DNA from: Candidatus Parcubacteria bacterium
Lineage (GTDB): Bacteria; Patescibacteriota; Patescibacteriia; UBA1558; GWA2-36-10
Direction of reading: 5' to 3'
Assembly: GCA_018669975.1 (NCBI GenBank)
Contig: JABHSK010000008.1
Location: 2,622-66,621 of the forward strand
Length of the DNA: 64,000 nucleotides
Shown: positions 7,316 through 53,425 of the stretch, piece after piece
Position numbering within the stretch: the stretch's first letter is position 1
Layout: every line of letters begins with the position of its first letter
Notes under the pieces: generated by a model
What the model was told of the DNA's origin: nothing
Seen by the model: only the letters and a program-made list of their open reading frames with translations
The model's database searches: none
Made by a program: the position numbers and the translations under genes

Positions 7316-7325
7316 TATAAATATT

Positions 7326-8884: not shown

Positions 8885-8887
8885 AAC

Positions 8888-8918
8888 AAAAAATCCCGCT
8901 ATAACGGGATTTTTTGTT
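8888..8918. terminator. Bidirectional rho-independent terminator between convergent murI and the minus-strand ORF
   Basis: aaaaaatcccgctataacgggattttttg: a perfect 7-bp stem flanked by an A-run and a T-run. Confidence 0.7.
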
Positions 8919-9259
8919 TATATTTTTTTGTAGCTTTCAAAGTGTATTCCGTCATCAGTAAATACTCCAGTAACCTTATATTTTCCTTTAGTAAACATTT
9001 GTTTATTTTCTAAGAAGTGTGTAGCCTCTAAAATAACAATGCTAGCCCTAGGTCGTGACAGAACTTCATTACCTTTTGTTTCTAATAAAGGGATTTCACC
9101 GTGAAGCCAATAATTTCTTTGACCACCCTTTAAAAAGTCGTAAGTCTTTCCTGCTTTTAGGTCTTTTGGAATGCACTCTTCGGTAGCCCTGTTACCATTT
9201 TTGTGCTCTTCTATAGAGCGTAGGGCTAAATCCGGATTAAATTCAATTTGGATACCCAT
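8918..9259 (-). CDS. Hypothetical small protein (possible cupin-like fold)
   Basis: 113-aa ORF in an operon position upstream of trpS, with no confident motif. The ATGA-like spacing (9259/9264) to trpS suggests co-transcription. Confidence 0.45.
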   Translation of the reverse strand: MGIQIEFNPDLALRSIEEHKNGNRATEECIPKDLKAGKTYDFLKGGQRNYWLHGEIPLLETKGNEVLSRPRASIVILEATHFLENKQMFTKGKYKVTGVFTDDGIHFESYKKI

Positions 9260-20724: not shown

Positions 20725-20796
20725 ATTTTATTTTATATTTTTTTAAAGAAGAGATTGGTCATTGGCTAATCTCTTTTTGTATAATATAATATCTAC

Positions 20797-22255: not shown

Positions 22256-22257
22256 TT

Positions 22258-25473: not shown

Positions 25474-28191
25474 ATGAACAAGAAAATTATTTTAATGACT
25501 ACAATTCTAGCTATGGTAGGCTTGCTTTTTGTAAACCTAGTCGAAGCCAGACAATATGTTGGTCGTTATTCCACTATTTTTGATTTAGATGGTGGAGGAG
25601 ATATTGACTTAACGGATATATCATTAATTGCTAGTTATTTACAAACTAGTAATAACGATGCTTGCTTTAATCAATATGAACCATTTTTAACCTCAGCTTT
25701 TATGGAGTCTGACAGCTGGTGCAGCTCTCTATTAGGGATTACGGGGGCTACTTTAAGATCAGGAGAATATGATGCAGTGGCTGATCTAAACGATGATGGT
25801 ATAGTAAATATTTCAGACCTTGCTTTAATTGCCACTTATTACGGAAATGACTACGGGCAAGTTTGTATGGCTCAGATTGCCAACAACTATAGTATGGAAG
25901 GCACCCCTTGGTGTGATGGTATTTATCAAGGTATTGCTGATACTATCGGTGAGGCTGATGGTGGTCCTGATTTAAGTCCGGAGACTATTACGATATCTCC
26001 AGAGGAGCCTATTGTTTGGACAGAAACAGAAATAACTGTTCAGGTTAGGAATACTGGCACTACTTCTTTTACAGATCAGAGCACTATCAATGATTTTTAT
26101 AGGATGTTAGGAAATTTTGAAGTAGAGCAAGAAATACTACCAGAAGTTTCTACTAGTAATCCAATAGAGCCAGGTGAAACTTACGAGGTTATTTTTCGAG
26201 GTAAATATACTAGACTGGGCAATCAACACTTGAGTTTTGTGGTTGATCCTCAGGATAATTTAGATGAACTAAATGAATATAATAACAGTATAACAGCTAG
26301 AGTTAGCGCTTCAGCATCTTCTGATATTGATTTATCTGTTGAAGATATTAATTTTGAGTCAGATAACAATTTACCCAATGAGACAGGTGTGCTATCCGTT
26401 ACTTTGAAGAATAATGGAGAAGCTATTACCAGTTCACTTGGTGTTTATAGTATATCTAATAATTTTGCTAATAAAGGTTTTGTGTTTTCTGGTGGATCTA
26501 ATAACTATACAGTAGACAGAGACAATAAACATATAACTGGTAGCTTTCCTTTTCACGCTGGAGACACCTTGACCATGTCTTGGCAGGGGCACTTTGCTTC
26601 AGAAGGTAATAAATCTCTACAGTGTGATGCAGATAGATATAATCATTTAGCGGAGACCAATGAGTTAAATAATAGTTTAACTAAAGTAATAGTTATTAGT
26701 TCAAATCAGACCACTTTACCAGATTATCCCGTTTGTGATCACAATGGCGATGGTTTGTATAATTTAAGTGATGTTGCTTTGTTTGCTGGTTGTCAAAACA
26801 CCTTTGATGCTAACGGTGACGGAGTACACAATTTAACCGATCTTTCTTTGTATGCTAGTAACTATAGTGATGCAGCTTGGTGCGCAACTAATTTACCTGA
26901 ATGTGCTCCAGAAGAAGCAGATGAAATGCCCGAACATACAACTTGTGATCATAACAGTGATGGTTTGTATAATTTAGCAGACATTTCTTTGTTTGCTAGT
27001 TGTATGGATACTTTTGATGCCAACGATGATGGTGTACATAATTTAACCGATCTTTCTTTGTATGCTAGTAATCACAATGATCAAGATTGGTGTGAACAAT
27101 ATTTACCTGAATGTGCCTCTGAGGACGATACAGATGATAACAGTGATTATTTAACCATTGTTAAGACTAGAGTAGATCAAATCACGCAAACCTCAGCTAG
27201 AGTGTATTGGCAGGCTAGTATGGGTAGCATGGGCGAATATCGTTATGCTACTTCTACCCAAGGTTTAGCTAGTGCAAGTAGCTGGTCAAATGGTATAGAT
27301 AACCATCCAGACCAGACAGGAAACATGTTTGCTAGTATGGTTACATTGAATAATTTGGAATCTAATACTAAATATTACATAGAGCTCAAAAAATTCTATA
27401 TGGATGGCCCTAACTATGTTTACGGAGATCCTAAGATAATTACTTTCGTTACTTTAGGTGAAGATGATGAGGGTCCAGAGGAAAAAATAACCATTTGTCA
27501 CACAACAGGTAGTGGTAAGAATCAGACTTTAAGTGTCGCAGAGTCTGCTTGGGTAGCCCATCAGAGACACGGGGATACTAGAGGTGCTTGTGAAGAAATT
27601 GACTTGCCACCGGTTATAGTCAAGCCACCAACAATAGTAGACAGTAGTTTAGTTGGTAGAGTTCGTGGTCGAATTTTGCTCCAAGTAGAAAACAATGGTG
27701 AAGCTTGGTATGTGCGCCCTAGTAACGGTAAGAAGGTTTATATGAAAGATGGTGGCGCTGCCTATGGTATGATGAGAAATCTTGGTTTAGGCATTACCAA
27801 TGCGAATTTAAAGAAAATTCCAGTTGGTGTAGAAGATAGGTTTGAGTCACGCGATACAGATGGTGATGGTTTGCCAGATAAACTGGAAGAAGGTCTAGGC
27901 ACAGATCCGAATAATCCTGATACAGATGGTGATGGTCACAATGACCGAACCGAGGTGCTTAATGGATATAATCCACTAGGAACAGGTCAGATGACTTACG
28001 ATAGTAATCTAGTCAATGGTATCTTGGGCAAGATTGTACTTCAGGTAGAGTCTCGTGGTGAAGCCTGGTACATTAATCCTGTAGATGGTAAGCGCTATTA
28101 TATGAAAGATGGTCCCGCTGCCTATCAGATTATGAGATACCTTAGTTTGGGTATTACTAACAAGGATTTAAATAGTATTGATACAGAGTAG
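25474..28191 (+). CDS. Large secreted/anchored repeat protein with dockerin-like Ca-binding modules, TSP3-like D-x-D-x-D-G repeats and a duplicated C-terminal GEAWY repeat module
   Basis: N-terminal signal/anchor (MNKKIILMTTILAMVGLLFV). Four dockerin-like segments (DLNDDGIVNISDLALIATYYGN; CDHNGDGLYNLSDVALFAG ... DANGDGVHNLTDLSLYAS ×2). TSP3-like DTDGDGLPDKLEEGLGTDPNNPDTDGDGHNDRTE. Two copies of LLQVE..GEAWYV.P..GK..YMKDG.AAY.MMR.LGLGITN. Confidence 0.6.
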   Translation: MNKKIILMTTILAMVGLLFVNLVEARQYVGRYSTIFDLDGGGDIDLTDISLIASYLQTSNNDACFNQYEPFLTSAFMESDSWCSSLLGITGATLRSGEYDAVADLNDDGIVNISDLALIATYYGNDYGQVCMAQIANNYSMEGTPWCDGIYQGIADTIGEADGGPDLSPETITISPEEPIVWTETEITVQVRNTGTTSFTDQSTINDFYRMLGNFEVEQEILPEVSTSNPIEPGETYEVIFRGKYTRLGNQHLSFVVDPQDNLDELNEYNNSITARVSASASSDIDLSVEDINFESDNNLPNETGVLSVTLKNNGEAITSSLGVYSISNNFANKGFVFSGGSNNYTVDRDNKHITGSFPFHAGDTLTMSWQGHFASEGNKSLQCDADRYNHLAETNELNNSLTKVIVISSNQTTLPDYPVCDHNGDGLYNLSDVALFAGCQNTFDANGDGVHNLTDLSLYASNYSDAAWCATNLPECAPEEADEMPEHTTCDHNSDGLYNLADISLFASCMDTFDANDDGVHNLTDLSLYASNHNDQDWCEQYLPECASEDDTDDNSDYLTIVKTRVDQITQTSARVYWQASMGSMGEYRYATSTQGLASASSWSNGIDNHPDQTGNMFASMVTLNNLESNTKYYIELKKFYMDGPNYVYGDPKIITFVTLGEDDEGPEEKITICHTTGSGKNQTLSVAESAWVAHQRHGDTRGACEEIDLPPVIVKPPTIVDSSLVGRVRGRILLQVENNGEAWYVRPSNGKKVYMKDGGAAYGMMRNLGLGITNANLKKIPVGVEDRFESRDTDGDGLPDKLEEGLGTDPNNPDTDGDGHNDRTEVLNGYNPLGTGQMTYDSNLVNGILGKIVLQVESRGEAWYINPVDGKRYYMKDGPAAYQIMRYLSLGITNKDLNSIDTE
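26735..27152. repeat. Tandem ~209-bp intragenic duplication (2 units) encoding Cys-containing dockerin-like modules
   Basis: Unit 1 starts at tgtgatcacaatggcgatggtttgtataatttaagtgat (26735). Unit 2 starts at tgtgatcataacagtgatggtttgtataatttagcagac (26944). They are roughly 85% identical at the DNA level by eye. Confidence 0.6.
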
Positions 28192-28197
28192 TATAAG

Positions 28198-28228
28198 AAA
28201 AACCCCGCTAAAAGCGGGGTTTTTTATT
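28198..28228 (+). terminator. Rho-independent terminator
   Basis: aaaaaccccgctaaaagcggggttttttattt: a perfect 7-bp GC-rich stem plus a T-run. Confidence 0.8.
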
Positions 28229-28279
28229 TATTTTAATAATGCTATAATTAACATAATAAAAAATAAGTAATTAAAATTT

Positions 28280-30151
28280 ATGAAAAAATTATTATTATTT
28301 TTCGGTCTACTATTAACCTCTCTTGTTATAGCTGACAGTGTTAGCGCTGCTTCTTTAGAGGTGGTTTATCCAAGTGGAGGTGAAAGATTAAAGGGTGGCG
28401 AGACCTATGAGTTTCGGTTGAATCAAGTGGGCTTAAAGTCAGTCAGGATTCGGTTAGAAAATTCGGAGGGCTATACTATGACCGGAACCTCTGCCTCTAT
28501 AGATATAGATTCAGACGCTAGTCAAGTGAGTTATCAGTACACAGTTCCGAATAGACCAGATTTAGAGGGGGACAATGAATATAAAGTGGACCTGACAGGG
28601 TATAAATTAGATTCTTCTGAACCAGGGGGTAATCCCAGCGCCCAGAGCGATGGTTATTTTTCTATATATCGTGATTTGCCAGATTTAGTGATTACAGATC
28701 TACAGGTTAAACAGTCTGTTGGTTGGTTAATTAACTGGTCTTCTGAGCCTCTAGTTTCTAATAACCGTCTATATTTTGATATTGTAACGGCTAACGAGGC
28801 TAATCCTATAGGTAATTATAGCTCAAAGATTAGAATAGAAGTAGGAGGCATGGTTTGTGAAAGAGAATATTCTACATCAGTACTTTCAGAATACACGACT
28901 TCTTGTTCTTCTTCTGATTTGAAGTTGTCGCCAGGTACTTATCAGGCTATTGCTACTATTGATCCAGAAAATAATGTTGCGGAAGTAGATGAAAATAATA
29001 ATACACAAACAATGACTCTTGAAATTATCGATGCCAACGAATATGTCTGGCCTATAAACGAATGCCAGTCTATTTATCCGCTGCCAGAAGGACACTATCA
29101 TGAGACATGTCTGGATATATTTATTGAAGACATCGAATTATCTTCAGCTAGTCCAAAGGTGAATGAAGAAATAACAATAGCAGTCAAAGGTGTTACTGAT
29201 TTTACCGGTGGACCTGTCACATTAGGAGATTTGGATAGGTATGACAATAATTTTCAAGATTTTATAACAACCAATATAGCGATTACCGAAGAACTTATAA
29301 ATCCAGGCGGACCCTTTGAATATTTATTTACAGGTCATTTTACATCCATTGGACAGAAAGAACTTCATTTTCAATATGACCCATTGAATAGAAAAAATGA
29401 AGCGAGCGAAAGCAATAATGAATATACGGAGGTAGTCTCTGTAGTTGCCAGCTCTAATGGTGATATAGGGGACGCTGATGGTGATGATGAAGCAACGGAC
29501 GATGACGAGCCAACAGAATGTATTGGTGGAACAGGTGATGGTCAGTTGGAATGCATGGATGATTCCGATGACGATACACCACCTGTGCCAACACTCTATG
29601 TAGATCAAAATTTAACCAATCGTCTTAAAGGTAAAATTTTATTGCAAGTGGAAGAACACGGTGAAGCTTGGTATGTTAGGCCAGATGATGGCAAGAGAAT
29701 GTACATGGCCGATGGTGATGCGGCCTATGGTATGATGAGAAATCTAGGTCTAGGTATCACCAACGCTGATTTAGCTAAAATACCAATTGGCTTTGAAGAT
29801 AGATTTGAATGTTTGGATACTGATGGCGATGGTTTATGTAATAAGTTAGAAGATGGGCTAGGCACTGATAAGTATAAAGCAGACTCTGACGGTGATGGTT
29901 TTGATGATGGCACAGAAATACGTAGTGATTATCAACCCCTAGGACCCGATAAGCTAAGTTATGATAATAATTTAATTAATCGTCTTAAAGGTAAGATTTT
30001 ATTGCAAGTTGAGGCTCATGGTGAAGCTTGGTACATAAATCCAGATGACGGCAAGAGGTATTATATGCCAGATGGTCCATCTGCCTATCAAATTATGAGG
30101 TTTCTCAGTTTGGGTATTACCAACAGCGATTTAGCTAAGATTGATACATAA
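28280..30151 (+). CDS. Paralogous secreted repeat protein sharing the C-terminal GEAWY-repeat / TSP3-like module with the upstream gene
   Basis: Signal peptide MKKLLLFFGLLLTSLVIADSVSA. C-terminus ...LLQVEEHGEAWYVRPDDGKRMYMADGDAAYGMMRNLGLGITNADLAKIPIGFEDRFECLDTDGDGLCNKLEDGLGTDKYKADSDGDGFDDGTE...LLQVEAHGEAWYINPDDGKRYYMPDGPSAYQIMRFLSLGITNSDLAKI. About 75% DNA identity to the corresponding part of 25474-28191 by eye. Confidence 0.6.
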   Translation: MKKLLLFFGLLLTSLVIADSVSAASLEVVYPSGGERLKGGETYEFRLNQVGLKSVRIRLENSEGYTMTGTSASIDIDSDASQVSYQYTVPNRPDLEGDNEYKVDLTGYKLDSSEPGGNPSAQSDGYFSIYRDLPDLVITDLQVKQSVGWLINWSSEPLVSNNRLYFDIVTANEANPIGNYSSKIRIEVGGMVCEREYSTSVLSEYTTSCSSSDLKLSPGTYQAIATIDPENNVAEVDENNNTQTMTLEIIDANEYVWPINECQSIYPLPEGHYHETCLDIFIEDIELSSASPKVNEEITIAVKGVTDFTGGPVTLGDLDRYDNNFQDFITTNIAITEELINPGGPFEYLFTGHFTSIGQKELHFQYDPLNRKNEASESNNEYTEVVSVVASSNGDIGDADGDDEATDDDEPTECIGGTGDGQLECMDDSDDDTPPVPTLYVDQNLTNRLKGKILLQVEEHGEAWYVRPDDGKRMYMADGDAAYGMMRNLGLGITNADLAKIPIGFEDRFECLDTDGDGLCNKLEDGLGTDKYKADSDGDGFDDGTEIRSDYQPLGPDKLSYDNNLINRLKGKILLQVEAHGEAWYINPDDGKRYYMPDGPSAYQIMRFLSLGITNSDLAKIDT

Positions 30152-41546: not shown

Positions 41547-43937
41547 ATGGTAATAAAGGATATATATCTTAGATACAGGGGGGCAATTATAACGACATTC
41601 GCGCTATTTTCTTTTATGATTATAGTATATGTCGTTATTTTTTATGGCTTATCTACTGGTCAAAGGTATATGATGATGCGTAATCCGATTGGTTATAAAA
41701 TCTTGGCCAATTGGCACTCTTTGCGTAAAATAGTCAATATAGTCCATCTTCCCTATTGGTTCAAAGATTCTCAACTAGAGATCTATACTATCGTCATTAG
41801 TCCTAATAATACTCAGGAGATGAACAACTATAAACCAGTCGGTGATGATGGTCTGACATTTGGTAGGATGTTTGATGATCTCAAGCATTATGTTAATGCT
41901 TACTTTGTCGGGAGCCAAGAGTATATTGAAGAAATAGATATTCGCTATCGCGGTATACAAAATAACAATTGGGATGCAGAGAAAACTGCCTTTAGGATAA
42001 AGTTTCCCAAAGAAAATTTATTTCAGGGTCAAAGAAGTTTAAATTTATTTTTACCATATGACCGTGGATTTTTTATTGAGCCGCTGAATTCTCATCGAGC
42101 TGATAAGCTGGGAGTGTTTAGCGCTGAATTTGAATTTGTTCGAGCCATGATCAATGGCCGTGATTTGGGAGTTTACCTAGCATCTGAGCCATGGTCTAAA
42201 GAATTTTTGGCCAAGCAAAATATCATGGACAGTAATAATATTTTTTCCAATAAAGACATAGATGTGTCTGAAGAGGTGATCAAACTATCAATGGATAGAT
42301 TGTCAGATTGGAAAAGCTATACAGCTGAAATAGAGGAAGGTCCATTTGAAGAACTGGCAGCCTTGCTGACTTTGATAGACAAGGCTGACGAACAAGAGTT
42401 TGCAAATAAAATATCAACTCTGGTTAATTTGGAAGAATTTTATGCCTGGCACGCTCTCAATGTTTTGGCAGGCTCCAGTCATCAGAGTGATAACAGTAAT
42501 TCAGTTTTACTTTTTAGACAGGAAACTGGAAGATTTGAGCTAGCGTCTTGGGACGTAAATATTGATAATCCAGATCATTATACTTTGGAGAAAACAAATA
42601 TACTAGCTAGGCGCATTTTAGCTAATCAGCATTTTTTTGAAGAATCTCAAAAAGTCTTGAGTGAATATGTTGAAGATGAAAATAACTTGGTGGATGATTT
42701 AAAGTTTTATGATGATATTTATGAACGCATGAAGCCAGAGTTTTATAATGATCAAGCTAAACTCTACAATGATTTTATGTTTGATGACACTATTGTTAAA
42801 TATCGTGATTGGTTGATTGGTAATTTTGCTAATGCCAAGGAGATAGCTAGTTTAGAACAAACACCGTTTACTTTTCATGCCCCAGAGTCTAGTGGAGAGA
42901 TAGATTTTCAAGGCAGTTTTAAATATCTTAATGATGTATCTTTAAGTTTAGAGCAGTTTTTGGTTAAACATCCACAGTTTATAAAATACGATCAGAATAC
43001 TGTTTGGTTGCCAGGTGGCTCACATATATTTAGAGAGACAGTTGTTGTGCCGCAAGGATTAAAGCTGGAGATTAGACCAGGAGCGCGTTTGTTTTTTGAT
43101 GAGGGTGTATCTATGATTTCCTATAGCCCAGTAGAAGCCAAAGGCAATAAACATTGGCCAATCATTATGAAACCTTTAGCCGCCAATAGGCCATGGGGTA
43201 GTTTTGCTGTAGTTAATGTTGAACAAGAAAATATTTTTGAATATCTAGAGCTTAGCGGAGGATCCAACGATTTGATAAATGGTACATTGTTGACTTCACA
43301 GTTTTCATTGCACAATACAAAATCTATTATTAATTATTGTACTTTCAGCAACAGTCAATCTGATGATGCTTTCCATGCCATACTAGGCTCAGTTAATATC
43401 AGTGATAGTATTTTTAAAAATAATATGGCAGATGCCATCGATGTTGATTATGTGCAAAATAGTTATATTATGAATTCCTTTTTTGACAATGATCAAGCCA
43501 GTGACCACAATGGAGACGCCATTGATCTGTCTGGGGTTGATGATTTCTTTATTATGGACAATGATATTCGCAATCATGGAGATAAATGTATCAGTGTGGG
43601 GGAAGCAGCTAACTTAGACATTACTAATAATATTATTAGTGGTTGTAATATTGGCATTGCCGTTAAAGATAATTCACGAGTCGTTATGGATAATAATATA
43701 ATTATTGGTAATCATGACAGTGGTCTATCTTTATATAGAAAAAAACAGGAGTTTATTAGTGGTGGAGAAGCGTTGCTGCAAGATTCTATTTTATGGGGTA
43801 ATCAAGAACAGCTGAACCAAGATGAACTTTCAAACTTAGAAATTAAAGATTCAATTATTCAGGGTGAGCAGGAGCAGCCAGATTTTCAAACATTATTACC
43901 AAAAGATTTATATCTTTTATATCAGGATAAATTATGA
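41547..43937 (+). CDS. CotH-family atypical protein kinase fused to right-handed parallel beta-helix (NosD/pectate-lyase-like) repeats
   Basis: N-terminal TM helix. CotH core spans about 100-360 (IRYRGIQNNNWDAEKTAFRIKFPKE...LNLFLPYDRGFFIEPL...FEFVRAMINGRDLGVYLASE). The C-terminal 300 aa hold repeated beta-helix turns (ISGCNIGIAVKDNSRVVMDNNIIIGNHDSGLSLY). Confidence 0.6.
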   Translation: MVIKDIYLRYRGAIITTFALFSFMIIVYVVIFYGLSTGQRYMMMRNPIGYKILANWHSLRKIVNIVHLPYWFKDSQLEIYTIVISPNNTQEMNNYKPVGDDGLTFGRMFDDLKHYVNAYFVGSQEYIEEIDIRYRGIQNNNWDAEKTAFRIKFPKENLFQGQRSLNLFLPYDRGFFIEPLNSHRADKLGVFSAEFEFVRAMINGRDLGVYLASEPWSKEFLAKQNIMDSNNIFSNKDIDVSEEVIKLSMDRLSDWKSYTAEIEEGPFEELAALLTLIDKADEQEFANKISTLVNLEEFYAWHALNVLAGSSHQSDNSNSVLLFRQETGRFELASWDVNIDNPDHYTLEKTNILARRILANQHFFEESQKVLSEYVEDENNLVDDLKFYDDIYERMKPEFYNDQAKLYNDFMFDDTIVKYRDWLIGNFANAKEIASLEQTPFTFHAPESSGEIDFQGSFKYLNDVSLSLEQFLVKHPQFIKYDQNTVWLPGGSHIFRETVVVPQGLKLEIRPGARLFFDEGVSMISYSPVEAKGNKHWPIIMKPLAANRPWGSFAVVNVEQENIFEYLELSGGSNDLINGTLLTSQFSLHNTKSIINYCTFSNSQSDDAFHAILGSVNISDSIFKNNMADAIDVDYVQNSYIMNSFFDNDQASDHNGDAIDLSGVDDFFIMDNDIRNHGDKCISVGEAANLDITNNIISGCNIGIAVKDNSRVVMDNNIIIGNHDSGLSLYRKKQEFISGGEALLQDSILWGNQEQLNQDELSNLEIKDSIIQGEQEQPDFQTLLPKDLYLLYQDKL

Positions 43938-44665
43938 ATCAGGATCGACACAGATTTGAATTCAAATATCAAATGACAGTTCAGACTGCCGAGGAGATTG
44001 CTAAATATATTCAAAAATTTGGCATGAAGCGAGACAAGCACGCTTCACCCATAGATGGTAGCTATGTAGTCACTAGCCTTTATTTTGATTCTTTTAGATT
44101 GTCTGATTATGTGGAAAAATCTGCTGGATTGACTAAACGAAAAAAAATACGTATGCGTATTTATGAGCCATATCTTAAAGATTCTGATTATGTTTTTTTT
44201 GAAATTAAGCACAAGGAAGATATGACCAATCGCAAGACCAAGGTCATGCTATCTAGACAGGAAGCAGAGGATCTTATGAAGTATGGCACGTCAGTTTTAG
44301 CTAGACGGGAATGGAAAGAGGGCGAGGATGAAATTAGAAATCGTTTTTTACATTTTTTAATCAGAGAGCCAGTCAAACCAAATTTGATTGTCAGATACAA
44401 GCGTCGGCCATTCATGAACCACGATAAAAGTCTGCGCGTTACCTTTGACTCTAATATTGAGGCCTGCCTGCAAAGAAATTTAGTTGATAATAAATTTATG
44501 GAGCAGGTTAGTGGCGACATGGTGACCATGGAAGTAAAATTTGCCTATACGTTGCCTTTTTGGTTAAAATCTGTAATAGTAAAGCATAATCTTAAGCGGG
44601 ATGCCTATTCTAAATACGCTCGTAGCCTAGAAGAGATTTATAAATATACCCCATTACTTCGTTAA
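43934..44665 (+). CDS. VTC-domain (polyphosphate-polymerase-like / CYTH-like) protein
   Basis: RFEFKYQMTVQTAEEI...TSLYFDSFRLSDY...KIRMRIYEP...FFEIKHKEDMTNRKTKV follows the VTC-domain pattern (E-x-K-Y ... YFD ... R-x-R ... E-x-K). The ATGA overlap with the CotH gene suggests translational coupling. Confidence 0.6.
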   Translation: MNQDRHRFEFKYQMTVQTAEEIAKYIQKFGMKRDKHASPIDGSYVVTSLYFDSFRLSDYVEKSAGLTKRKKIRMRIYEPYLKDSDYVFFEIKHKEDMTNRKTKVMLSRQEAEDLMKYGTSVLARREWKEGEDEIRNRFLHFLIREPVKPNLIVRYKRRPFMNHDKSLRVTFDSNIEACLQRNLVDNKFMEQVSGDMVTMEVKFAYTLPFWLKSVIVKHNLKRDAYSKYARSLEEIYKYTPLLR

Positions 44666-44686
44666 TAAAAATTAAATTTAAATACT

Positions 44687-45367
44687 ATGGAAGATCTATT
44701 GAATTTTTCAAACCTTACCCTAATAGAATATAGCTCAGCAGTTATTGTAACTAATATTTTAGTAGCCTTTGTACTTAGTTTGTTAATTGCCTGGGTTTAT
44801 CAGAAAACTCATCGGGGCATTTCCTATTCCCAGTCATTTGTTACATCTTTGGTGATGATGAATGTGTTGTCTACTATCGCAATGATGATATTAGGTAATA
44901 ATTTGATACGGGCCTTAGGAATTTTAGGTGTATTTACCTTGCTTAGATTTAGAACGATAATCAAAGATACTCGTGATGCTACTTATTTATTTTTCGCCTT
45001 AGCTATTGGTATGGCAGTTGGTACGAACAACTATACTATTGCTGCCATCGGCACAGTGATGCTGCTTTTGATCAATATCATCTTATATAAAGTAAATTTT
45101 GGTTCAGTGGTACGCGAGGGATTTTTATTAACCTTAACTATCAATAAAGATTTTGAAGAGAGTTCCTACAAAGACATTTTTTCTAAAAATCTCTTATCTC
45201 ATAAGCTATTACAAATTAAAACCAGATCAGAAGGTGATGGTGAGTATTATTTTTCTGTGCGTTTCAAAAAAGACGATGTCAAAGAAGTGTTTCTTAAGGA
45301 AATTAAATCTTTGCCCGGAGTTATGTTCGTGGATCTAGTCACTAGTCGTGATGCAGCTGAGTATTAA
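44687..45367 (+). CDS. DUF4956-family membrane protein
   Basis: 4 TM helices with the characteristic LGILGVFTLLRFRT..KD.RD..Y.F.A...G...G segment of DUF4956, which is recurrently encoded next to VTC-domain and CotH genes. Confidence 0.6.
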   Translation: MEDLLNFSNLTLIEYSSAVIVTNILVAFVLSLLIAWVYQKTHRGISYSQSFVTSLVMMNVLSTIAMMILGNNLIRALGILGVFTLLRFRTIIKDTRDATYLFFALAIGMAVGTNNYTIAAIGTVMLLLINIILYKVNFGSVVREGFLLTLTINKDFEESSYKDIFSKNLLSHKLLQIKTRSEGDGEYYFSVRFKKDDVKEVFLKEIKSLPGVMFVDLVTSRDAAEY

Positions 45368-45368
45368 T

Positions 45369-45824
45369 ATGCATAAAGCATATTATAAATCACCCATCGG
45401 TATTTTAGAGATTGTGGCTAATAATAAAGGAATTACGGCCATTAGTTTTGTTAAAATTAAATCAAATAATTCAAAATCCAATGCACTTATCACTAGGTGC
45501 ATTGTTCAATTAAAAGAATATTTTTCTGGACAAAGAAAAACATTTGATGTTCCGATAGTCATCGAGGGTACCGAATGGCAAGTTAGGGTTTGGACCGAGT
45601 TAACCAAAATACCCTTTGGTAGTATTATAGCCTATCAAGATTTAGCTGCTATGTCTGGCAACAAGCAAGCAGCTAGGGCGGTTGGTAATGCAGTCAATAA
45701 AAATAAAATTCCAATAATTATACCCTGTCACAGAGTCCTAGGTAGTAGCGGAAAACTTGTTGGCTATGAAGGGGGTTTGTGGCGTAAAAAATACTTATTA
45801 GAGCAAGAAATTAAATATAGTTAA
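45369..45824 (+). CDS. ogt: Methylated-DNA--protein-cysteine methyltransferase
   Basis: IPIIIPCHRVLGSSGKLVGYEGGLWRKKYLLEQE: the PCHRV active site and the helix-turn-helix of the MGMT family. Start chosen at MHKAYYK (ATG 45369) to avoid overlap with the upstream stop. Confidence 0.85.
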   Translation: MHKAYYKSPIGILEIVANNKGITAISFVKIKSNNSKSNALITRCIVQLKEYFSGQRKTFDVPIVIEGTEWQVRVWTELTKIPFGSIIAYQDLAAMSGNKQAARAVGNAVNKNKIPIIIPCHRVLGSSGKLVGYEGGLWRKKYLLEQEIKYS

Positions 45825-45862: not shown

Positions 45863-47650
45863 ATGAATCCGGTAGAAGAAGTTAAGAATAAACTTGATAT
45901 TGTGGAGATAGTTTCAGGCTATATTAGCTTGAATCAGGTCGGTGGCAACTTTAAAGCTTGCTGCCCTTTTCATAATGAAAAAACACCAAGTTTCATGGTA
46001 TCTAAAGAAAAACAAATTTACCATTGTTTTGGCTGTGATAAGGGTGGAGATGTAATTAGTTTTGTGCAGGAGTATGAAGGGATAGATTTTAAAGAGGCCT
46101 TGAGAATTTTAGCTCAAAAAGCCAACGTGCCTCTTAGTGGGTTTAGCTTTAAACAAAAACAAGATTATAGTCGTCTTTATGAAATAAATAACTTAGCCGC
46201 CGATTTTTATCACAACTTGTTGATGCAGGATTCGCAAGTTGGTAAAAAAGTACTCAAATATTTAGATAATAGAAAAATCAATAAAGGCAGTCTCACTAAT
46301 TGGAGACTGGGTCTATCAGGAGAAAGTTGGGATGGGCTACTCAAGTATTTAATTTCCAAAGGTTTTAAAGAGCAGGATATATTTGAGGCCGGTCTTATTT
46401 TAAGGAAAAAAGATGGTAGTGGGTATTTAGATCGTTTTCGTAAACGATTAATGTTTCCCATTTCTGATACACAGGGTAGGGTGGTTGCTTTTACTTCACG
46501 AACTTTATCTGGTATTGCCTATGATGAAATTGAGCAGGGTGGTAAATATATAAACAGTCCCCAAACCGCCATTTATGATAAGAGTAAAGTTTTGTATGGC
46601 TGGCATTTAGCCAAAGATACGATTCGCAAGAAAAAATATTTGATTATAGTAGAGGGCAACATGGATGCCATCGCTGTATCTCAGACTAGTTCCAAAAATG
46701 TTGTGGCAGTATCTGGTACAGCTCTAACCGCTGATCATATTAAATTGATTAAAAGGTACGCTAATAATATTATTTTGGCCTTTGATGGTGATGCAGCTGG
46801 ATCACGAGCAGCTTTTAGGAGTGTGGTGCTAGGTTGGCAAAATGATATGAACCTGAAGATATTGATTTTACTCAAAGGAAAGGATCCGGCAGACATCGTC
46901 AAAGAGGATCCGCAGAAGTGGTTGCAATTGGTCAAAGATTCAGTGCAGGTCATGGATTATTATTTTAAACGTATTATTGCTGGCGTTGATTTGAGTCGGG
47001 CAGATCACAAGAAGATAGCTATTAGTAAATTATTGCCGATTATTAAATTTCTAAAGAGTCAGGTAGAGCAGGCGCACTATTTAAAATTGATTTCCGATAG
47101 GTTGCAAATACCTTTAGAGATATTACAACAAGATTTAACTAGTACAAAGTCTTTTATAGAAAATCAACAAACCCCGACTACTAAGAGTAATGAAACACAG
47201 AAGAGGGTCTCGTTTTCTCTTAGCGAAGAGTTGTTGTCACTGGTCTTTTTAAAGGGTATTTATCTTGAAAAATTGGTCGCCGAAGTCGAGCCAGAGATGG
47301 TTTCTTCTGACCTAGAGTCCCTTTACAGAAAGGTTGTAATCTACTATACTAAGCATCAGAATTTGGATAATTTCATAGATTATTCAGAATTAGACAATAA
47401 TGAAAAAGAAGCATGGGTAAGATTGTCTATGCTAGGCGAGAAAGACTATCAAAGTTTATCAGATACTGAATTGCTAGATAGTTTTGAAAGTATGTTGTCC
47501 AATCTCAAATTACGTCATCTAGAGGATAAACGGAAAGAGTTAATTGTTGATATTAAGCAGTCGGAATTGACGGGTGATGAACAAAAAGTCAATCAATTAG
47601 AAAGTGAAATTCATTTATTAGGAAAAGAAATAGAAAAGTTAAAAAAATAA
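45863..47650 (+). CDS. dnaG: DNA primase
   Basis: CHC2 zinc finger [35 protein letters not shown]. The Toprim domain reads [13 protein letters not shown] ... AFDGDAAG. Confidence 0.9.
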
Positions 47651-47663
47651 TTTACAGCTAAAT

Positions 47664-49028
47664 ATGCCTGTAAAGAAAAAGACTACAATTAAAAAGAAGA
47701 TCACTAAGAAAGTGGTCAAAAAAAACACTGCCAAAAAAAGCAGTGCTACCAAACCTATCAAGGTACGTAAACCGGTTGCCAAAAAGAAAAAAGCAACGGT
47801 CAAAAAAACTACCAGCAAAAAGGTAACTAAAAAAACTCCTAAAAAAGTGGTTAAGAAAACCAAGGCAGTTAAAAAAGTTGCCAAGAAAACAACTAAGATT
47901 GCCAAGAAAAAGGCGGTCAAAAAAGTAAAAGCTCCAAAGGCAAAACTTAATAAGGACTTGGTTGAAAATTTAATCAAGAAATCTCGTTCACGTAGCTTTA
48001 TTACAGAAGACGAGGTCTTGAGGATTTTTACAGACATGGAAGATTATACTTCAAGCTTTGAAGATTTCCTAGATACATTGGATGACCTAGCTATTCAGAT
48101 TATTGCCACCGAAGGCGGTATTCTGGATATGCAAGCCAATGCTTCCGATATTTTATCAAAATCAGGATTAGGTAGCGACAAGAATCGTGGTGACCTGACA
48201 GATATTGCATCGGATTCTATTCAGATGTATCTCAGAGAAATAGGCAAAGTGCCTTTGCTAAAAGGAGAGGAAGAGGTAATGTATGCCAAGCGTAAGGAAA
48301 GAGGACAGTTGGATGCTAAAAAGAAGTTGATTGAAGCAAATCTTCGTTTGGTAGTTAGTATTGCCAAAAAATTTACTGGCAGGTCACTGACACTTTTGGA
48401 TTTGATCCAAGAAGGTAACATCGGGTTATTTAGAGCAGTGGAGAAATTTGATTACCGCAAGGGGTATAAATTTTCTACCTATGCAACTTGGTGGATTCGC
48501 CAGGCTATTACTCGTGCCCTAGCTGATCAATCTAGAACTATCAGAATTCCAGTTCATATGGTTGAAACAATTAATCGTTTTAATCAAATAGAGCGTAGAC
48601 TAGTCCAAGAATTGGGCAGAGATCCATTGCCAGAAGAAATTGCTGCTGAGATGGGCGAAGAAGTTGACAAGATTAGACAGATTATAAAAATATCCCAAGA
48701 GACAGTTTCTTTGGAAGCATCAGTTGGTGATGATGATGAAGATAGTACTCTAGGAGACTTCATTGAAGATGAGAAGAATATCGGTCCTGACAAAGTAGCT
48801 TCATTAAAGTTATTAAGTGATCATGTTAAAAAAGTTATTTCTGATTTGACTCCTCGAGAGCAGAAAATTTTGGAGATGCGCTTCGGTCTAAGTGACGGAG
48901 TAGCACATACCTTGGAAGAAGTTGGACAGGAATTTGGTGTGACTCGTGAGCGTATTAGACAGATAGAAGCCAAGGCTCTAGAGCGTATCAAAAAGCACGA
49001 AGACATGAGAAAATTGAGAGATTACTAA
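47664..49028 (+). CDS. rpoD: RNA polymerase sigma-70 factor RpoD with Lys-rich N-terminal extension
   Basis: Region 2 [40 protein letters not shown]. Region 4 [24 protein letters not shown]. The N-terminal roughly 95 aa are a K/T/V-rich low-complexity tract. Follows dnaG as in the conserved macromolecular-synthesis operon. Confidence 0.9.
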
Positions 49029-51388: not shown

Positions 51389-53425
51389 ATGGCCGCAACC
51401 GTACCGAAGATTCCCTATCCGGAACCTGATAAGCTCACTCTTTGGAACACCAGTGTTTCCAAGAAGGATCGTCTCAGGATTATTAATGAGGAAGATTTTC
51501 CTCGCGAGGAGATTCTCAGTAGTCTGGGTCTGGGTAAGAAATCGGAATTGGTCAAAAGTTTTGGTATCACTGATGAAGGTGAGCTTCGTGCTCGTCATGC
51601 ACTCGGTGCCATGCTCTTAGCCGACGATGATTTCATGGACTGGTCACGACAGAATCATCGTTCGTTACCCAATATTCCCGCGAACGAAGGAGCTTTTTTG
51701 GAGTTCTATGATCCCCAGTTGGAGCACAATCCCTACTGGACTGAAGTTCATCGTTTCCTGGCTTTCGTGGACAACTATCCCGATCCGCCTGTCAGGCTCA
51801 AGCAAGTAGCTGACAAGCTGCGCGAAGGCTTACCTCTCGAGGACATGGAGACCGAAATGGCTCGGCAGATTGCTGAGCGACTCAAGGTCGTCACGGTTAT
51901 CGAGGGTGTCATGCACATGAGACTGGTTGTGGATCACTATACGCCTACCAAGAAAAATGCCGAAGGCGAGAAGGTTCCCAATGGTCCGTCATTTTGGAGA
52001 CTGAAAGATATTTCTCATTCACACAGCAGGGTATTTGGCCATCGGCTCTATAGTCAAGGCCTGTCCTCTGTGCGTATGGTGGAAAATCCCGACTGGAACA
52101 AAAGCAAGTGGAATCCGGCCATCTGGCTGGGTATTGCTAAGGCTTGGCGGGGTGTCGTTAATCTGCGTAACTGGTGGCGTCGCCGTAAGGCTTATCGTCA
52201 GATGGTGATCACCGGGCAAAGCAAAGATATGGTTAAGGATGTTGGCGACGCTATCAAGCGACGCATTTCTAAGGTTCCTATGAGCGATAAGTTCAATGGA
52301 GCGCTAGTGACAGTGTCTTTTGTCTATGACAAGGATGGTCTTAGGGTTCAGATTATGGACATCAAGTCTGCCAAGCGTACCCTGGATAGTGATCAACGTC
52401 GCGAGATTTCTTCGGGCGTCGATAATTTCGAGGGCTATACTTCATTACAGAAGGAGCAGATCGAAAGGGCTCACGTCGAGCGACGTGAAGCTGCTATGGA
52501 ACTGCAACGTTGTCAGAAGTCCGACGCTCTGCGCCTACTTTTAGCAGCAGTTAATCCAAGCTTCTTCAGTAGTCTGACAACCGAGCGCTCAACGGAGATG
52601 GACAAAGAGTATCGCTGGTTCGCTATCAGTAATGAATACTACGGTCGCTGGGATGAGCTTTATCAAGCTCTGCGTCAGAATCGTGGTTTCTTTACCCGTC
52701 ACTTCAATCGACTGAGCCAGGTGGCTGAGTTGGTCAACAAGGTGGCTGATAAGGGTAGAGATCTCGGTGTCCCTGTTTGTTCACCGGAGATTGTTTCCAA
52801 TGGTCATATTGTGGTCTTTGAAAAACTCTGGCCTACACACCTGCTTTTCCGTTTGGATCGCAAGTCGGTAGTTCCGATCGAGCGTTTGCCCGAGCTCAAT
52901 GGGCAGATGATCGGTTTGACTGGCAAGCATGGTGGCGGCAAGACTGAAACTCAGATTGCGGTGGTAGCCAACATCTATCTGGCCCATTCTGGTGTACCGG
53001 TCTTCGGCAGCTACTTCAAGTCCAACGTCAAAAAGGTGTTGGGTATGGTCTTTATTGCCCAGCGTGGTGATGGCTCGACCTGCGAGATGTTGCTGGCCAA
53101 GATCCGCAAGGTCCTCGAAGGTATCAAAAAGTGCGACGGCAGAGAAGTCGTACTGGTACTGGACGAGGTCGGTTCGGCTACTCAGGAAGTGGCTGGCTTC
53201 GAACTCGGTCGTGACCTGCTGTCCACTCTGTCCGGACGAAACGTCTCTGTGCTCTTTAGCACGCAGATCACTTCGCTGGCAGAGTATGCTGACACTGAAC
53301 TGGGAGCTTTGAGTTTCCAGATGGATCGCAAGCACAGGATTAATACCGGCATCGGTGATGGCGGCATGACTGACTTGCGTCGTTCCATGGGAGTGGATAA
53401 GTTCCTGACCAAAGTCGCTAGCTAA
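51389..53425 (+). CDS. Standalone MutS domain V-like ABC ATPase with large uncharacterised N-terminal region
   Basis: C-terminal 230 aa: IGLTGKHGGGKTETQIAVVANIYLAHSGVPVFG (compare MutS [31 protein letters not shown]), GDGSTCEMLLAKI (MutS GRSTFMVEM), VVLVLDEVGSATQEVAGFELGRDLLSTL (MutS [23 protein letters not shown]), VLFSTQITSLAE (MutS TLFATHYFELT). The N-terminal roughly 450 aa have no recognisable motif. The coding DNA is visibly G+C-richer than the genome background. Confidence 0.6.
   Translation: MAATVPKIPYPEPDKLTLWNTSVSKKDRLRIINEEDFPREEILSSLGLGKKSELVKSFGITDEGELRARHALGAMLLADDDFMDWSRQNHRSLPNIPANEGAFLEFYDPQLEHNPYWTEVHRFLAFVDNYPDPPVRLKQVADKLREGLPLEDMETEMARQIAERLKVVTVIEGVMHMRLVVDHYTPTKKNAEGEKVPNGPSFWRLKDISHSHSRVFGHRLYSQGLSSVRMVENPDWNKSKWNPAIWLGIAKAWRGVVNLRNWWRRRKAYRQMVITGQSKDMVKDVGDAIKRRISKVPMSDKFNGALVTVSFVYDKDGLRVQIMDIKSAKRTLDSDQRREISSGVDNFEGYTSLQKEQIERAHVERREAAMELQRCQKSDALRLLLAAVNPSFFSSLTTERSTEMDKEYRWFAISNEYYGRWDELYQALRQNRGFFTRHFNRLSQVAELVNKVADKGRDLGVPVCSPEIVSNGHIVVFEKLWPTHLLFRLDRKSVVPIERLPELNGQMIGLTGKHGGGKTETQIAVVANIYLAHSGVPVFGSYFKSNVKKVLGMVFIAQRGDGSTCEMLLAKIRKVLEGIKKCDGREVVLVLDEVGSATQEVAGFELGRDLLSTLSGRNVSVLFSTQITSLAEYADTELGALSFQMDRKHRINTGIGDGGMTDLRRSMGVDKFLTKVAS

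What the first reader, a model, noticed from the sequence alone, without database searches (positions are those of the whole stretch)
41547..45367. CotH kinase (fused to a beta-helix domain) - VTC domain - DUF4956 three-gene module
Three tightly packed, partly translationally coupled genes encode a membrane-anchored CotH-family atypical kinase extended by right-handed beta-helix repeats, a VTC (polyphosphate-polymerase/CYTH-like) domain protein and a DUF4956 polytopic membrane protein. CotH, VTC and DUF4956 genes recur together in diverse bacteria, but the biochemical function of the triad is not established. A membrane-associated polyphosphate or phospho-transfer system acting on an extracellular/cell-wall substrate is a reasonable hypothesis. 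The beta-helix fusion on CotH is an additional unusual feature, suggesting carbohydrate or surface-polymer binding.
Basis: partly seen in the sequence, partly recalled or inferred. Interest (0 to 1): 0.6.

Follow-up and report, generated by a model that had tools for sequence, protein, structure and literature searches.

The report
CotH–VTC–DUF4956 surface phosphorylation gene module
Three adjacent genes in a tiny candidate-phyla-radiation (CPR) bacterium pair an intact polyphosphate-polymerase enzyme inside the cell with a membrane protein and an outward-facing kinase-like, sugar-binding protein, a widespread set of unknown function that probably puts phosphate on the cell-surface sugar coat.

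Summary
Pfam places the three ORFs in CotH + Beta_helix, VTC and DUF4956, and CotH and VTC overlap by ATGA.

The host is a Patescibacteria (Parcubacteria) genome. VTC keeps all nine Vtc4 triphosphate/Mn ligands, including K458, which inactive Vtc2/3 lack. The same residues are kept in 80-83 of 83 prokaryotic homologues.

DUF4956 is an MgtC-like protein with five membrane helices and a C-terminal ACT-like domain. CotH–beta-helix is anchored N-in, so both its domains face outward.

In 80 loci seeded on VTC:
- VTC→DUF4956 adjacency holds in 75.
- CotH lies within 6 kb in 48.
- The CotH–beta-helix fusion occurs in 35, so it is common, not unusual.

All six CotH-seeded relatives carry the triad inside glycan-synthesis clusters. 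One relative fuses a processive GT2 synthase to VTC.

The triad is already published as a Pel-locus accessory set of unknown function. Here it lies outside any Pel locus.

Best model, inferred: polyphosphate is made inside the cell, passed through or at DUF4956, and used outside by CotH–beta-helix to phosphorylate a surface glycan. The canonical catalytic Asp of CotH is displaced, so kinase chemistry is uncertain.

The parts
41547..43937 (+). Gene for a 796-aa membrane-anchored CotH–beta-helix protein
   Evidence: Pfam finds CotH, Beta_helix and NosD. The AF2 model has mean pLDDT 92.8. Forty-nine homologues share the architecture, and those that carry a source name are Patescibacteria.
41586..41654 (+). 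N-terminal signal-anchor helix, about aa 14-36, predicted N-in/C-out
   Evidence: It is the single hydrophobic peak in the protein. Across 41 family members the N-flank net charge is +3.5 against +0.9 for the C-flank, with 36 N>C and 0 N<C.
41772..42866 (+). CotH kinase-like domain, about aa 76-440. The catalytic-loop region is H312-Q-S-D315-N-S-N318, and W335-D336 follows.
   Evidence: phmmer against B. cereus CotH 5jd9 gives E 1.8e-7. Foldseek against 5jd9 gives E 1.3e-15 and TM 0.82.
42981..43862 (+). Right-handed parallel beta-helix, about aa 479-772, with a conserved ladder of Asp and Lys residues
   Evidence: Pfam Beta_helix and NosD match. Foldseek hits include AlgG/AlgE epimerases, PL6 lyases, GH28, GH87, phage tailspikes and NosD. 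Near-invariant residues are D606, D607, H610, D629, D632, D634, D657, D660, D679, K680, E686, K707, D708, K732 and K733.
43934..43937 (+). ATGA overlap of the CotH stop and the VTC start (translational coupling)
   Evidence: Read directly from the sequence.
43934..44665 (+). Gene for a 243-aa stand-alone VTC (Vtc4-like triphosphate-tunnel) protein with no hydrophobic segment
   Evidence: Pfam VTC, E 7.8e-34. A family profile hits Vtc4 3g3q at E 1.7e-10. All Vtc4 ligand residues are conserved. No hydrophobic peak is present.
44687..45367 (+). Gene for a 226-aa DUF4956 (MgtC-like) membrane protein
   Evidence: Pfam DUF4956 matches and MgtC is sub-threshold. NCBIfam gives a weak MgtC/SapB hit. 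The AF2 model has pLDDT 78.8.
44735..45094 (+). Five predicted membrane helices (aa 17-136). The conserved loops T41-x2-G44-x2-Y47-S48 and R87-F88-R89...D97 lie on the predicted cytoplasmic side.
   Evidence: Helices come from the AF2 secondary structure. Conservation across 80 sequences from many phyla and the loop charges are.
45122..45343 (+). C-terminal beta-alpha-beta-beta-alpha-beta (ACT-like) domain, aa 146-219, predicted cytoplasmic
   Evidence: Secondary structure. Foldseek hits the ACT domains of phosphoglycerate dehydrogenase, IlvN, Rel and NikR, with ribosomal protein S6 as the top hit.

Best explanation
The three genes form one envelope module that adds phosphate to a cell-surface glycan.

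Step 1. The soluble VTC protein is a Vtc4-type, metal-dependent polyphosphate polymerase. It works in the cytoplasm and uses the gamma-phosphate of ATP. The active site is shown to be intact; the activity is inferred.

Step 2. The MgtC-like DUF4956 protein is its obligatory membrane partner. It plays the part that the transmembrane ring plays in the yeast VTC complex: it docks the tunnel enzyme at the membrane and passes the nascent polyphosphate, or its phosphoryl groups, across. Its ACT-like domain acts as a regulatory sensor. The near-obligatory gene pairing is shown; the conduit role is inferred.

Step 3. CotH–beta-helix is anchored by one N-terminal helix, with both domains outside the cell. 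The beta-helix groove holds a surface polysaccharide. The CotH kinase-like domain transfers phosphate to it, or to an associated protein, drawing on the exported polyphosphate because ATP is not available outside the cell. Topology and folds are shown or predicted; donor and acceptor are inferred.
For: VTC active site
- All Vtc4 residues that bind triphosphate and Mn are present in the window protein: K200, R264, R266, K281, Y359, R361, E426, S457 and K458. Each is needed for polyP synthesis, and K458 is the one residue that differs in inactive Vtc2/3.
- They correspond to K11, R73, R75, K92, Y155, R157, E200, S226 and K227.
- They are conserved in 80-83 of 83 prokaryotic homologues.

VTC–DUF4956 pairing
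- VTC→DUF4956 adjacency on the same strand holds in 75 of 80 VTC-seeded loci. Three of the five exceptions are contig ends.
- The loci span Patescibacteria, Peregrinibacteria, Planctomycetota, Myxococcota, Chloroflexota, Bacillota, Actinomycetota and the archaeon Methanolobus.
- The DUF4956 residues conserved across phyla fall in the two positively charged loops predicted to be cytoplasmic: T41, G44, Y47, S48 and R87-F88-R89 with D97.

CotH link and topology
- CotH lies within 6 kb in 48 of 80 loci.
- 6 of 6 CotH–beta-helix relatives are followed by VTC and DUF4956.
- 53 of 59 complete module-linked CotH ORFs have a hydrophobic N-terminus, whereas VTC has none. The anchor is N-in by the positive-inside rule.

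Glycan link
- All six CotH-seeded relatives sit among GT4/GT2 transferases, sugar-nucleotide enzymes, a flippase, NeuB or deacetylase genes. The commonest neighbour families in 133 flanking ORFs are of the same kinds.
- In one relative a processive GT2 synthase is fused to VTC and followed by DUF4956 and CotH. Alkaliphilus has GT2–VTC–DUF4956–CotH as separate genes.
- Where CotH is absent, the third gene can be a Cthe_2159 beta-helix carbohydrate-binding protein, as in Methanolobus and Anaerolineaceae.
- The beta-helix resembles polysaccharide epimerases, lyases and hydrolases and has a conserved Asp/Lys ladder.

Experimental support
- In S. intermedius, deleting the DUF4956 or the CotH homologue changes Pel levels and lowers aggregation.
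Against: - No experiment shows polyP synthesis by any prokaryotic VTC protein. No kinase-fold enzyme is known to me to use polyP as donor (my own knowledge).
- The canonical catalytic Asp (B. cereus D224, inferred to equal B. subtilis D228) aligns without gaps to Q313. The candidate substitute D315 is Tyr in 9 of 48 close relatives, and D336 is Asn in 6 of 48. Some family members are therefore probably not kinases, yet they keep the module.
- The DUF4956 membrane domain matches no solved channel.
- About a third of VTC–DUF4956 pairs, mainly Bacillales such as Sporosarcina, have no CotH or beta-helix gene nearby. The pair can therefore work without CotH.
- Deleting the VTC homologue SIR_1593 gave no reported aggregation phenotype.
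- In this window the triad is flanked by housekeeping genes, not glycan genes.
Confidence: 0.4

Rival explanations
1. VTC–DUF4956 is a self-sufficient polyphosphate synthase, either a membrane depot or an exporter. It would serve phosphate or cation storage, or a polyanionic envelope layer. CotH–beta-helix is then an accessory that binds, anchors or trims the exported polymer or a glycan, without acting as a kinase.
For: - The pair occurs without CotH in roughly a third of loci.
- The CotH catalytic loop is divergent, and the two Asp residues are lost together in a subclade: 5 of the 6 proteins with N336 also have Y315.
- The third gene can be a non-kinase beta-helix protein, Cthe_2159.
- The conserved acidic and Lys ladder on the beta-helix could bind a metal-bridged polyanion (inference).
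Against: - Most family members keep H312, D315, N318 and D336 (33 of 48), together with N-lobe residues shared with the active B. cereus kinase.
- The canonical NWD...NY catalytic motif is retained in module-linked CotH proteins of other clades.
- This points to selection for catalysis.
Confidence: 0.27
2. CotH is a regulatory protein Ser/Thr kinase, as in Bacillus spore coats. It would control exopolysaccharide synthesis or surface proteins using ATP. VTC and DUF4956 would act as a phosphate- or energy-sensing input.
For: [quoted passage not shown]
- This role was proposed for the Pel-linked cotH.
- MgtC proteins affect PhoR and the ATP synthase in Salmonella.
Against: - The kinase domain is predicted to lie outside the membrane, where ATP is scarce.
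- It is fused or linked to carbohydrate-type domains: beta-helix, CHB_HEX_C_1 and LTD.
- A purely regulatory role does not explain the strict conservation of the polymerase active site in VTC.
Confidence: 0.15
3. The VTC protein is not a polymerase. It is another triphosphate-tunnel enzyme, such as a triphosphatase or a nucleotide cyclase, whose product regulates the MgtC-like protein.
For: The triphosphate-tunnel superfamily includes hydrolases and cyclases (my own knowledge). No prokaryotic VTC enzyme has been assayed: the literature searches found none.
Against: The match is to the VTC family specifically (117.7 bits). Every residue required for polyP synthesis is kept, including K458, which separates active Vtc4 from inactive Vtc2/3.
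Confidence: 0.1
4. The adjacency is incidental gene packing in a streamlined CPR genome.
For: All genes from about 15 to 51 kb are co-directional with tiny gaps. Unrelated SpoU and Ogt genes abut the triad. The promoter and terminator scan is uninformative.
Against: The same order recurs in 6 of 6 CotH-seeded relatives and across many phyla and an archaeon. A gene fusion links VTC to a synthase next to DUF4956 and CotH.
Confidence: 0.02

Closest known systems
cotH – polyphosphate polymerase – DUF4956 accessory genes of Gram-positive Pel loci (S. intermedius SIR_1594/1593/1592; Whitfield et al. 2020; mBio 2025, PMC12345266)
   Same: The same three protein families are adjacent to one another. 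CotH is secreted, DUF4956 has MgtC-like membrane helices plus an ACT domain, and the set is linked to an exopolysaccharide. The function is unknown.
   Different: - No pel genes occur anywhere in the 64-kb window.
- The gene order is CotH–VTC–DUF4956.
- CotH is fused to a beta-helix rather than an FN3 domain, and there is no DUF4832 hydrolase.
- The host is a Patescibacteria genome.
- The mBio paper reports not finding the triad outside Pel loci. The census here finds it widely outside them.
Yeast VTC complex (Vtc4 catalytic subunit with the Vtc1/2/3 membrane ring)
   Same: The tunnel domain is homologous and has an identical ligand set. The catalytic domain is obligatorily associated with a polytopic membrane component, which suggests that synthesis is coupled to membrane transit.
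   Different: - The prokaryotic protein is stand-alone at 243 aa, with no SPX domain and no fused membrane helices.
- The membrane partner is an unrelated MgtC-like 5-helix protein with an ACT-like domain.
- Translocation has not been demonstrated.
Bacillus CotH spore-coat protein kinase (PDB 5jd9/5jda)
   Same: The atypical kinase fold is shared (TM 0.82). Also shared are the YRG...K, NG..GVY...E, N318 and W-D336 motifs.
   Different: - The window protein is extracytoplasmic and membrane-anchored, whereas the Bacillus enzyme acts in the mother cell.
- It is fused to a beta-helix.
- The canonical catalytic Asp position is Gln, with an Asp two residues later.
- No CotB/CotG-like substrate is evident.
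MgtC/SapB family
   Same: Both have five membrane helices plus a C-terminal ACT-like domain. Profile matches are weak: Pfam 25.1 bits and NCBIfam PRK09977 E 1e-7.
   Different: The match falls below the family thresholds. The protein carries its own conserved RFR and T-x2-G-x2-YS loops and is always paired with VTC.
Polysaccharide-active right-handed beta-helix enzymes (AlgG/AlgE epimerases, PL6 lyases, GH28, tailspikes) and Cthe_2159
   Same: The fold is shared, and conserved acidic residues line successive rungs.
   Different: Only part of the GH28 motif is kept: NGD and the first Asp of the DD pair are present, but the second Asp is Lys680. No known catalytic signature is complete.

Membership tests
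CotH (PF08757) atypical kinase | Profile match above the curated threshold | tested here: met
   79.8 bits against a cut-off of 23.8. Only profile positions 1-213 of 322 are matched.
CotH (PF08757) atypical kinase | CotH kinase fold | tested here: met
   AF2 model with pLDDT 92.8. Foldseek against 5jd9 gives E 1.3e-15 and target TM 0.82.
CotH (PF08757) atypical kinase | Catalytic Asp (B. subtilis D228; B. cereus D224 by inference from equal spacing) | tested here: inconclusive
   Gapless alignment puts Q313 at this position. D315, two residues later, is conserved in 36 of 48 relatives, and its loss goes together with loss of D336.
CotH (PF08757) atypical kinase | Metal-binding Asp (B. subtilis D251; B. 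cereus D247) and the Asn of the catalytic loop | tested here: met
   D336 is conserved in 41 of 48 and N318 in 47 of 48.
CotH (PF08757) atypical kinase | Phosphotransferase activity | not testable with these tools
   Needs biochemistry.
Vtc4-type polyphosphate polymerase (VTC domain PF09359) | Profile match above threshold and homology to Vtc4 | tested here: met
   117.7 bits against a cut-off of 23, full length. A family profile hits 3g3q at E 1.7e-10.
Vtc4-type polyphosphate polymerase (VTC domain PF09359) | The nine triphosphate/Mn ligands, including K458, which inactive Vtc2/3 lack | tested here: met
   K11, R73, R75, K92, Y155, R157, E200, S226 and K227 are all present. They are conserved in 80-83 of 83 homologues.
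Vtc4-type polyphosphate polymerase (VTC domain PF09359) | SPX domain and C-terminal membrane helices in the same polypeptide, as in eukaryotic Vtc4 | tested here: not met
   The protein is 243 aa and single-domain, with no hydrophobic segment.
Vtc4-type polyphosphate polymerase (VTC domain PF09359) | PolyP synthesis from ATP | not testable with these tools
   No assay of any prokaryotic member was found in the literature.
DUF4956 (PF16316) | Profile match above threshold | tested here: met
   52.3 bits against a cut-off of 30.6.
MgtC family (PF02308) | Profile match above threshold | tested here: not met
   25.1 bits against a cut-off of 31.4. NCBIfam PRK09977 gives 31.7 against 214. The architecture is similar, with five helices plus an ACT-like domain.
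Right-handed beta-helix (PF13229) | Profile match and fold | tested here: met
   49.7 bits against a cut-off of 25.9. Foldseek finds AlgG, AlgE, PL6 and GH28 enzymes.
GH28 polygalacturonase | Catalytic Asp triad (NTD, DD) and the GHG and RIK motifs | tested here: not met
   In the alignment to 2iq7, NGD and the first Asp are kept, but the second Asp is K680 and the His is absent. E is only 0.21.
Gram-positive Pel accessory gene set | Contiguity with pelDEADAFG | tested here: not met
   No Pel family appears in any of the 51 window ORFs scanned with Pfam (every ORF of 150 aa or more except three, plus one of 114 aa), nor among the listed (most frequent) neighbour families of related loci.

The most novel reading that the evidence does not exclude
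Prokaryotes, including CPR bacteria and some archaea, have their own VTC-type polyphosphate polymerase. It is coupled to an MgtC-like membrane conduit that extrudes polyphosphate. Outward-facing CotH kinase-like enzymes, here fused to a glycan-binding beta-helix, then use that polyphosphate as phosphoryl donor.

This would solve the problem of how a kinase can work outside the cell without ATP. It would also define a new route of surface-glycan phosphorylation, and it would give a biochemical role to the MgtC superfamily.
Probability: 0.2. Interest if true: 0.85.

Novelty: new variant of a known kind. Interest (0 to 1): 0.6.

Why it matters
Bacterial polyphosphate synthesis is attributed to PPK1 and PPK2, and VTC is treated as a eukaryotic enzyme. 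Yet the profile search found 11,173 cluster representatives at E ≤ 1e-3, and the 150 best are almost all stand-alone proteins of about 220-280 aa. The 83 prokaryotic VTC ORFs examined here keep an intact active site, and DUF4956 follows VTC directly in 75 of the 80 VTC-seeded loci.

If the module exports polyphosphate for extracellular phosphotransfer, four things would follow:
- It would explain how secreted CotH proteins obtain a phosphoryl donor.
- It would assign a function to the accessory genes of streptococcal Pel loci, which influence aggregation.
- It would suggest what MgtC-like proteins do.
- It would reveal a surface-modification system in CPR bacteria, whose host attachment depends on their envelope.

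The hypothesis is directly testable with three proteins and existing point-mutant designs.

Tried and rejected
- Single-sequence phmmer of VTC against PDB gave only marginal hits. A family profile was needed.
- The Nguyen et al. 2016 CotH structure paper is not held. The B. cereus/B. subtilis catalytic-residue equivalence therefore rests on equal spacing.
- Model coordinates are not exposed, so active-site superposition and electrostatics could not be done.
- The promoter and terminator scan was uninformative: 34 promoter-like sites against 26.7 expected, and no + strand terminator between the three genes.
- My own CotH HMM, built from Patescibacteria, missed five Firmicute or Chloroflexota CotH genes that Pfam found. 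The count of 48 of 80 is a lower bound.
- Literature searches found no functional study of a prokaryotic VTC or DUF4956 protein beyond the two Pel papers.
- Rejected: chance adjacency, a GH28 hydrolase role for the beta-helix, and membership of a Pel locus.

Full report
**Observation**

The three ORFs exist exactly as described: 41547-43937, 43934-44665 and 44687-45367, all on the + strand. Pfam assigns them as follows:
- ORF1: CotH (79.8 bits against a cut-off of 23.8, aa 132-339) plus Beta_helix and NosD (aa 589-771).
- ORF2: a full-length VTC domain (117.7 bits).
- ORF3: DUF4956 (52.3 bits), with a sub-threshold MgtC match. NCBIfam adds a weak MgtC/SapB hit.

CotH and VTC overlap by ATGA. 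Local packing is not itself informative. The unrelated SpoU methylase and Ogt genes abut the triad, and Ogt most likely starts at ATG 45369. A promoter and terminator scan adds nothing.

**Organism and family**

The CotH–beta-helix protein has 49 homologues with the same architecture. Those that carry a source name are Patescibacteria: Azambacteria, Yanofskybacteria and 'Patescibacteria group'. The identical protein lies on an 844-kb contig, and the DUF4956 protein is named as from a Parcubacteria bacterium. The window has about 35% GC and a single tRNA.

**VTC protein**

A profile of 17 relatives hits the catalytic domain of yeast Vtc4 (3g3q, E 1.7e-10).

The cryo-EM study of the VTC complex lists the residues that hold the triphosphate and Mn: K200, R264, R266, K281, R361, K458, S457, Y359 and E426. 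It shows that each matters for polyP synthesis, and that K458 is the one residue replaced in the inactive Vtc2 and Vtc3.

All nine are present in the window protein, as K11, R73, R75, K92, R157, K227, S226, Y155 and E200. They are conserved in 80-83 of 83 prokaryotic VTC ORFs collected here. The protein has no hydrophobic segment, so it is cytoplasmic.

The family is large: 11,173 cluster representatives at E ≤ 1e-3 and 5,798 at E ≤ 1e-10. The 150 best hits are almost all stand-alone proteins of about 220-280 aa.

**DUF4956 protein**

The AF2 model (pLDDT 78.8) has five helices at aa 17-136 and a C-terminal beta-alpha-beta-beta-alpha-beta domain. The domain has a ferredoxin-like fold: Foldseek's hits are ribosomal protein S6 (the top hit, E 7.6e-4) and the ACT domains of phosphoglycerate dehydrogenase, IlvN and Rel.

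Loop charges predict an N-out, C-in topology. The residues conserved across phyla all lie in or next to the two basic loops predicted to be cytoplasmic: Y38, T41, G44, Y47, S48, then R87-F88-R89 and D97. The membrane part resembles no solved structure.

**CotH–beta-helix protein**

The model is confident (pLDDT 92.8). The CotH part superposes on B. cereus CotH (TM 0.82). The C-terminal half resembles alginate epimerases, PL6 lyases, GH28 and GH87 enzymes, tailspikes and NosD.

The single N-terminal helix is a signal anchor. In 41 relatives the N-flank carries +3.5 net charge against +0.9 on the C-flank, and the order is never reversed. Both domains should therefore be outside the cell.

The active site is only partly canonical:
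- N-lobe motifs, N318 and W335-D336 match the Bacillus enzyme. D336 corresponds to B. cereus D247 and, by inference, to B. subtilis D251, whose mutation inactivates the kinase.
- The canonical catalytic Asp (B. cereus D224, inferred to equal B. subtilis D228) aligns with Q313.
- An Asp two residues on, D315, is kept in 36 of 48 relatives. H312 is kept in 46 of 48.
- Loss of D315 (to Tyr) and loss of D336 (to Asn) go together: 5 of the 6 proteins with N336 have Y315. This suggests D315 is functionally tied to the metal-binding Asp, and that one subclade has become catalytically dead.

The beta-helix carries a near-invariant ladder of Asp and Lys residues over successive rungs: D606, D607, H610, D629, D632, D634, D657, D660, D679, K680, E686, K707, D708, K732 and K733. 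That points to a conserved binding or catalytic groove. It is not a GH28 site.

**Synteny census**

I seeded on VTC and took 80 loci from one-genome-per-species GTDB. I scored their ORFs with HMMs built here and with Pfam.

- DUF4956 follows VTC on the same strand within 300 nt in 75 of 80 loci. Two loci have an inserted ORF, and three end at a contig edge.
- CotH lies within 6 kb in at least 48 of 80.
- CotH fused to a beta-helix occurs in 35 of 80. These include Peregrinibacteria, Planctomycetota (Kuenenia) and Myxococcota.
- In Methanolobus, Anaerolineaceae, Oscillospiraceae and Erysipelotrichaceae the third gene lies downstream. It is either CotH or a Cthe_2159 beta-helix carbohydrate-binding protein.
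- A Bacillales group (Sporosarcina and relatives) has only the VTC–DUF4956 pair.

Seeding on CotH–beta-helix instead, 6 of 6 relatives are followed by VTC and DUF4956.

Among 59 complete module-linked CotH ORFs, 53 start with a hydrophobic segment, while VTC proteins have none.

**Link to glycans**

- All six CotH-seeded loci are embedded in surface-glycan clusters. These contain GT4/GT2 transferases, epimerases and dehydratases, aminotransferases, methyltransferases, B12-radical-SAM enzymes, a flippase, NeuB/CMP-transferase or a deacetylase.
- The commonest neighbour families over 133 flanking ORFs are of the same kinds.
- One representative, P0329, is a processive GT2 synthase fused to a C-terminal VTC domain. 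It is followed by DUF4956 and a CotH protein and preceded by DUF2334.
- Alkaliphilus has the same genes unfused.
- The window itself is an exception. The nearest glycan-related genes (Wzy_C, MBOAT, AlgX-like) lie about 20 kb away, and no glycosyltransferase or pel gene was found in the 51 ORFs scanned.

**What is known**

- The set cotH – polyphosphate polymerase – DUF4956 (± DUF4832) was described as accessory genes next to Gram-positive pel operons.
- In S. intermedius, deleting the DUF4956 gene (SIR_1592) or the CotH gene (SIR_1594) altered Pel levels and halved aggregation in artificial sputum medium. Deleting the VTC gene (SIR_1593) did not.
- Those authors report not finding the triad outside Pel loci. 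The census here shows that it is widespread outside them.
- C. perfringens NELoc-2 also has VTC, a membrane protein, CotH and a chitin-synthase-like gene.
- I found no biochemical study of a prokaryotic VTC or DUF4956 protein.

**Mechanism**

Shown:
- The polymerase active site is intact.
- The VTC–DUF4956 gene pairing is near-obligatory.
- CotH, a beta-helix protein or both are a frequent third partner.
- The cytoplasmic location of VTC and the extracytoplasmic location of CotH are consistent across the loci.
- The module is associated with, and in one case fused to, polysaccharide-synthesis genes.

Inferred:
- VTC makes polyphosphate at the membrane.
- DUF4956 docks it and conducts the polymer or its phosphoryl groups outward, by analogy with the yeast VTC membrane ring.
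- The outward-facing CotH–beta-helix uses this to phosphorylate a surface glycan.

I give the whole chain a confidence of about 0.4. The weakest links are translocation by DUF4956 and polyP as donor for a kinase fold. The rival explanations are listed separately, each with the evidence for and against it and the result that would refute it.

**Verdict**

The finding is real and correctly annotated. It is a beta-helix-fused variant, outside any Pel locus and in a CPR genome, of a gene set already published but not characterised. It is of moderate to high interest because it makes a specific and unusual hypothesis testable.

Noticed in passing
L087:3251-5407 (also L088:607-2763): A 718-aa protein fuses a processive GT2 synthase (Glyco_tranf_2_3) to a C-terminal VTC domain. 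DUF4956 follows it with an overlap, then a CotH protein with LTD, ILEI and CHB_HEX_C_1 domains. DUF2334 precedes it.
   Followed up: yes
L025-L028 (Methanolobus spp.), around 5950-9070: The VTC–DUF4956 pair also occurs in an archaeal genus. The third gene is a Cthe_2159 beta-helix carbohydrate-binding protein in L026 and L027, and CotH in L028.
   Followed up: partly
window 41547-43937, aa 315 and 336; relatives P0029, P0038, P0039, P0042: A subclade of the CotH–beta-helix family has Tyr in place of D315 (9 of 48). Five of those also have Asn in place of D336. They are possible pseudokinases that still keep the VTC–DUF4956 partners.
   Followed up: partly
L031, L034, L039, L045, L046, L077 (Peregrinibacteria/Peribacteria and one unnamed bacterial MAG), upstream of VTC: Two CotH genes lie in tandem: a CotH of about 460-590 aa without a beta-helix, directly followed by a CotH–beta-helix of about 900 aa. 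In Parcubacteria-like loci L015, L016 and L019 the order is reversed.
   Followed up: no
window 51389-53425 (+): A 678-aa ORF with a P-loop (GKHGGGKTE) has no Pfam family. It lies in a stretch of 48.5% GC (52-54 kb), against about 35% elsewhere. It may be foreign DNA or a MutS-like ATPase.
   Followed up: no
window 19396-23319 (+): A cluster of surface-polymer genes: a Wzy_C (O-antigen-ligase-like) protein, MBOAT and an AlgX-like SGNH acetyltransferase. The MBOAT may be split between ORFs 20797-21303 and 21206-22255.
   Followed up: no
window 25474-30151 (+): Two large proteins (905 and 623 aa) with CARDB domains and a bacterial TSP3 repeat. They are probably surface proteins.
   Followed up: no
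window 47664-49028 (+) and 47639-48037 (-): RpoD carries an N-terminal extension of about 100 aa that is extremely rich in Lys, Ala and Thr. The 132-aa antisense ORF over it is almost certainly an artefact of that composition.
   Followed up: no
window 45348-45824 (+): The Ogt/MGMT ORF is listed from GTG 45348, which overlaps DUF4956 by 20 nt. An ATG at 45369, one base after the DUF4956 stop, is the more likely start.
   Followed up: partly
L004, L089, L090, L091 (flanks of the triad in Parcubacteria): B12-binding radical-SAM enzymes recur immediately next to the CotH gene in several glycan clusters.
   Followed up: no
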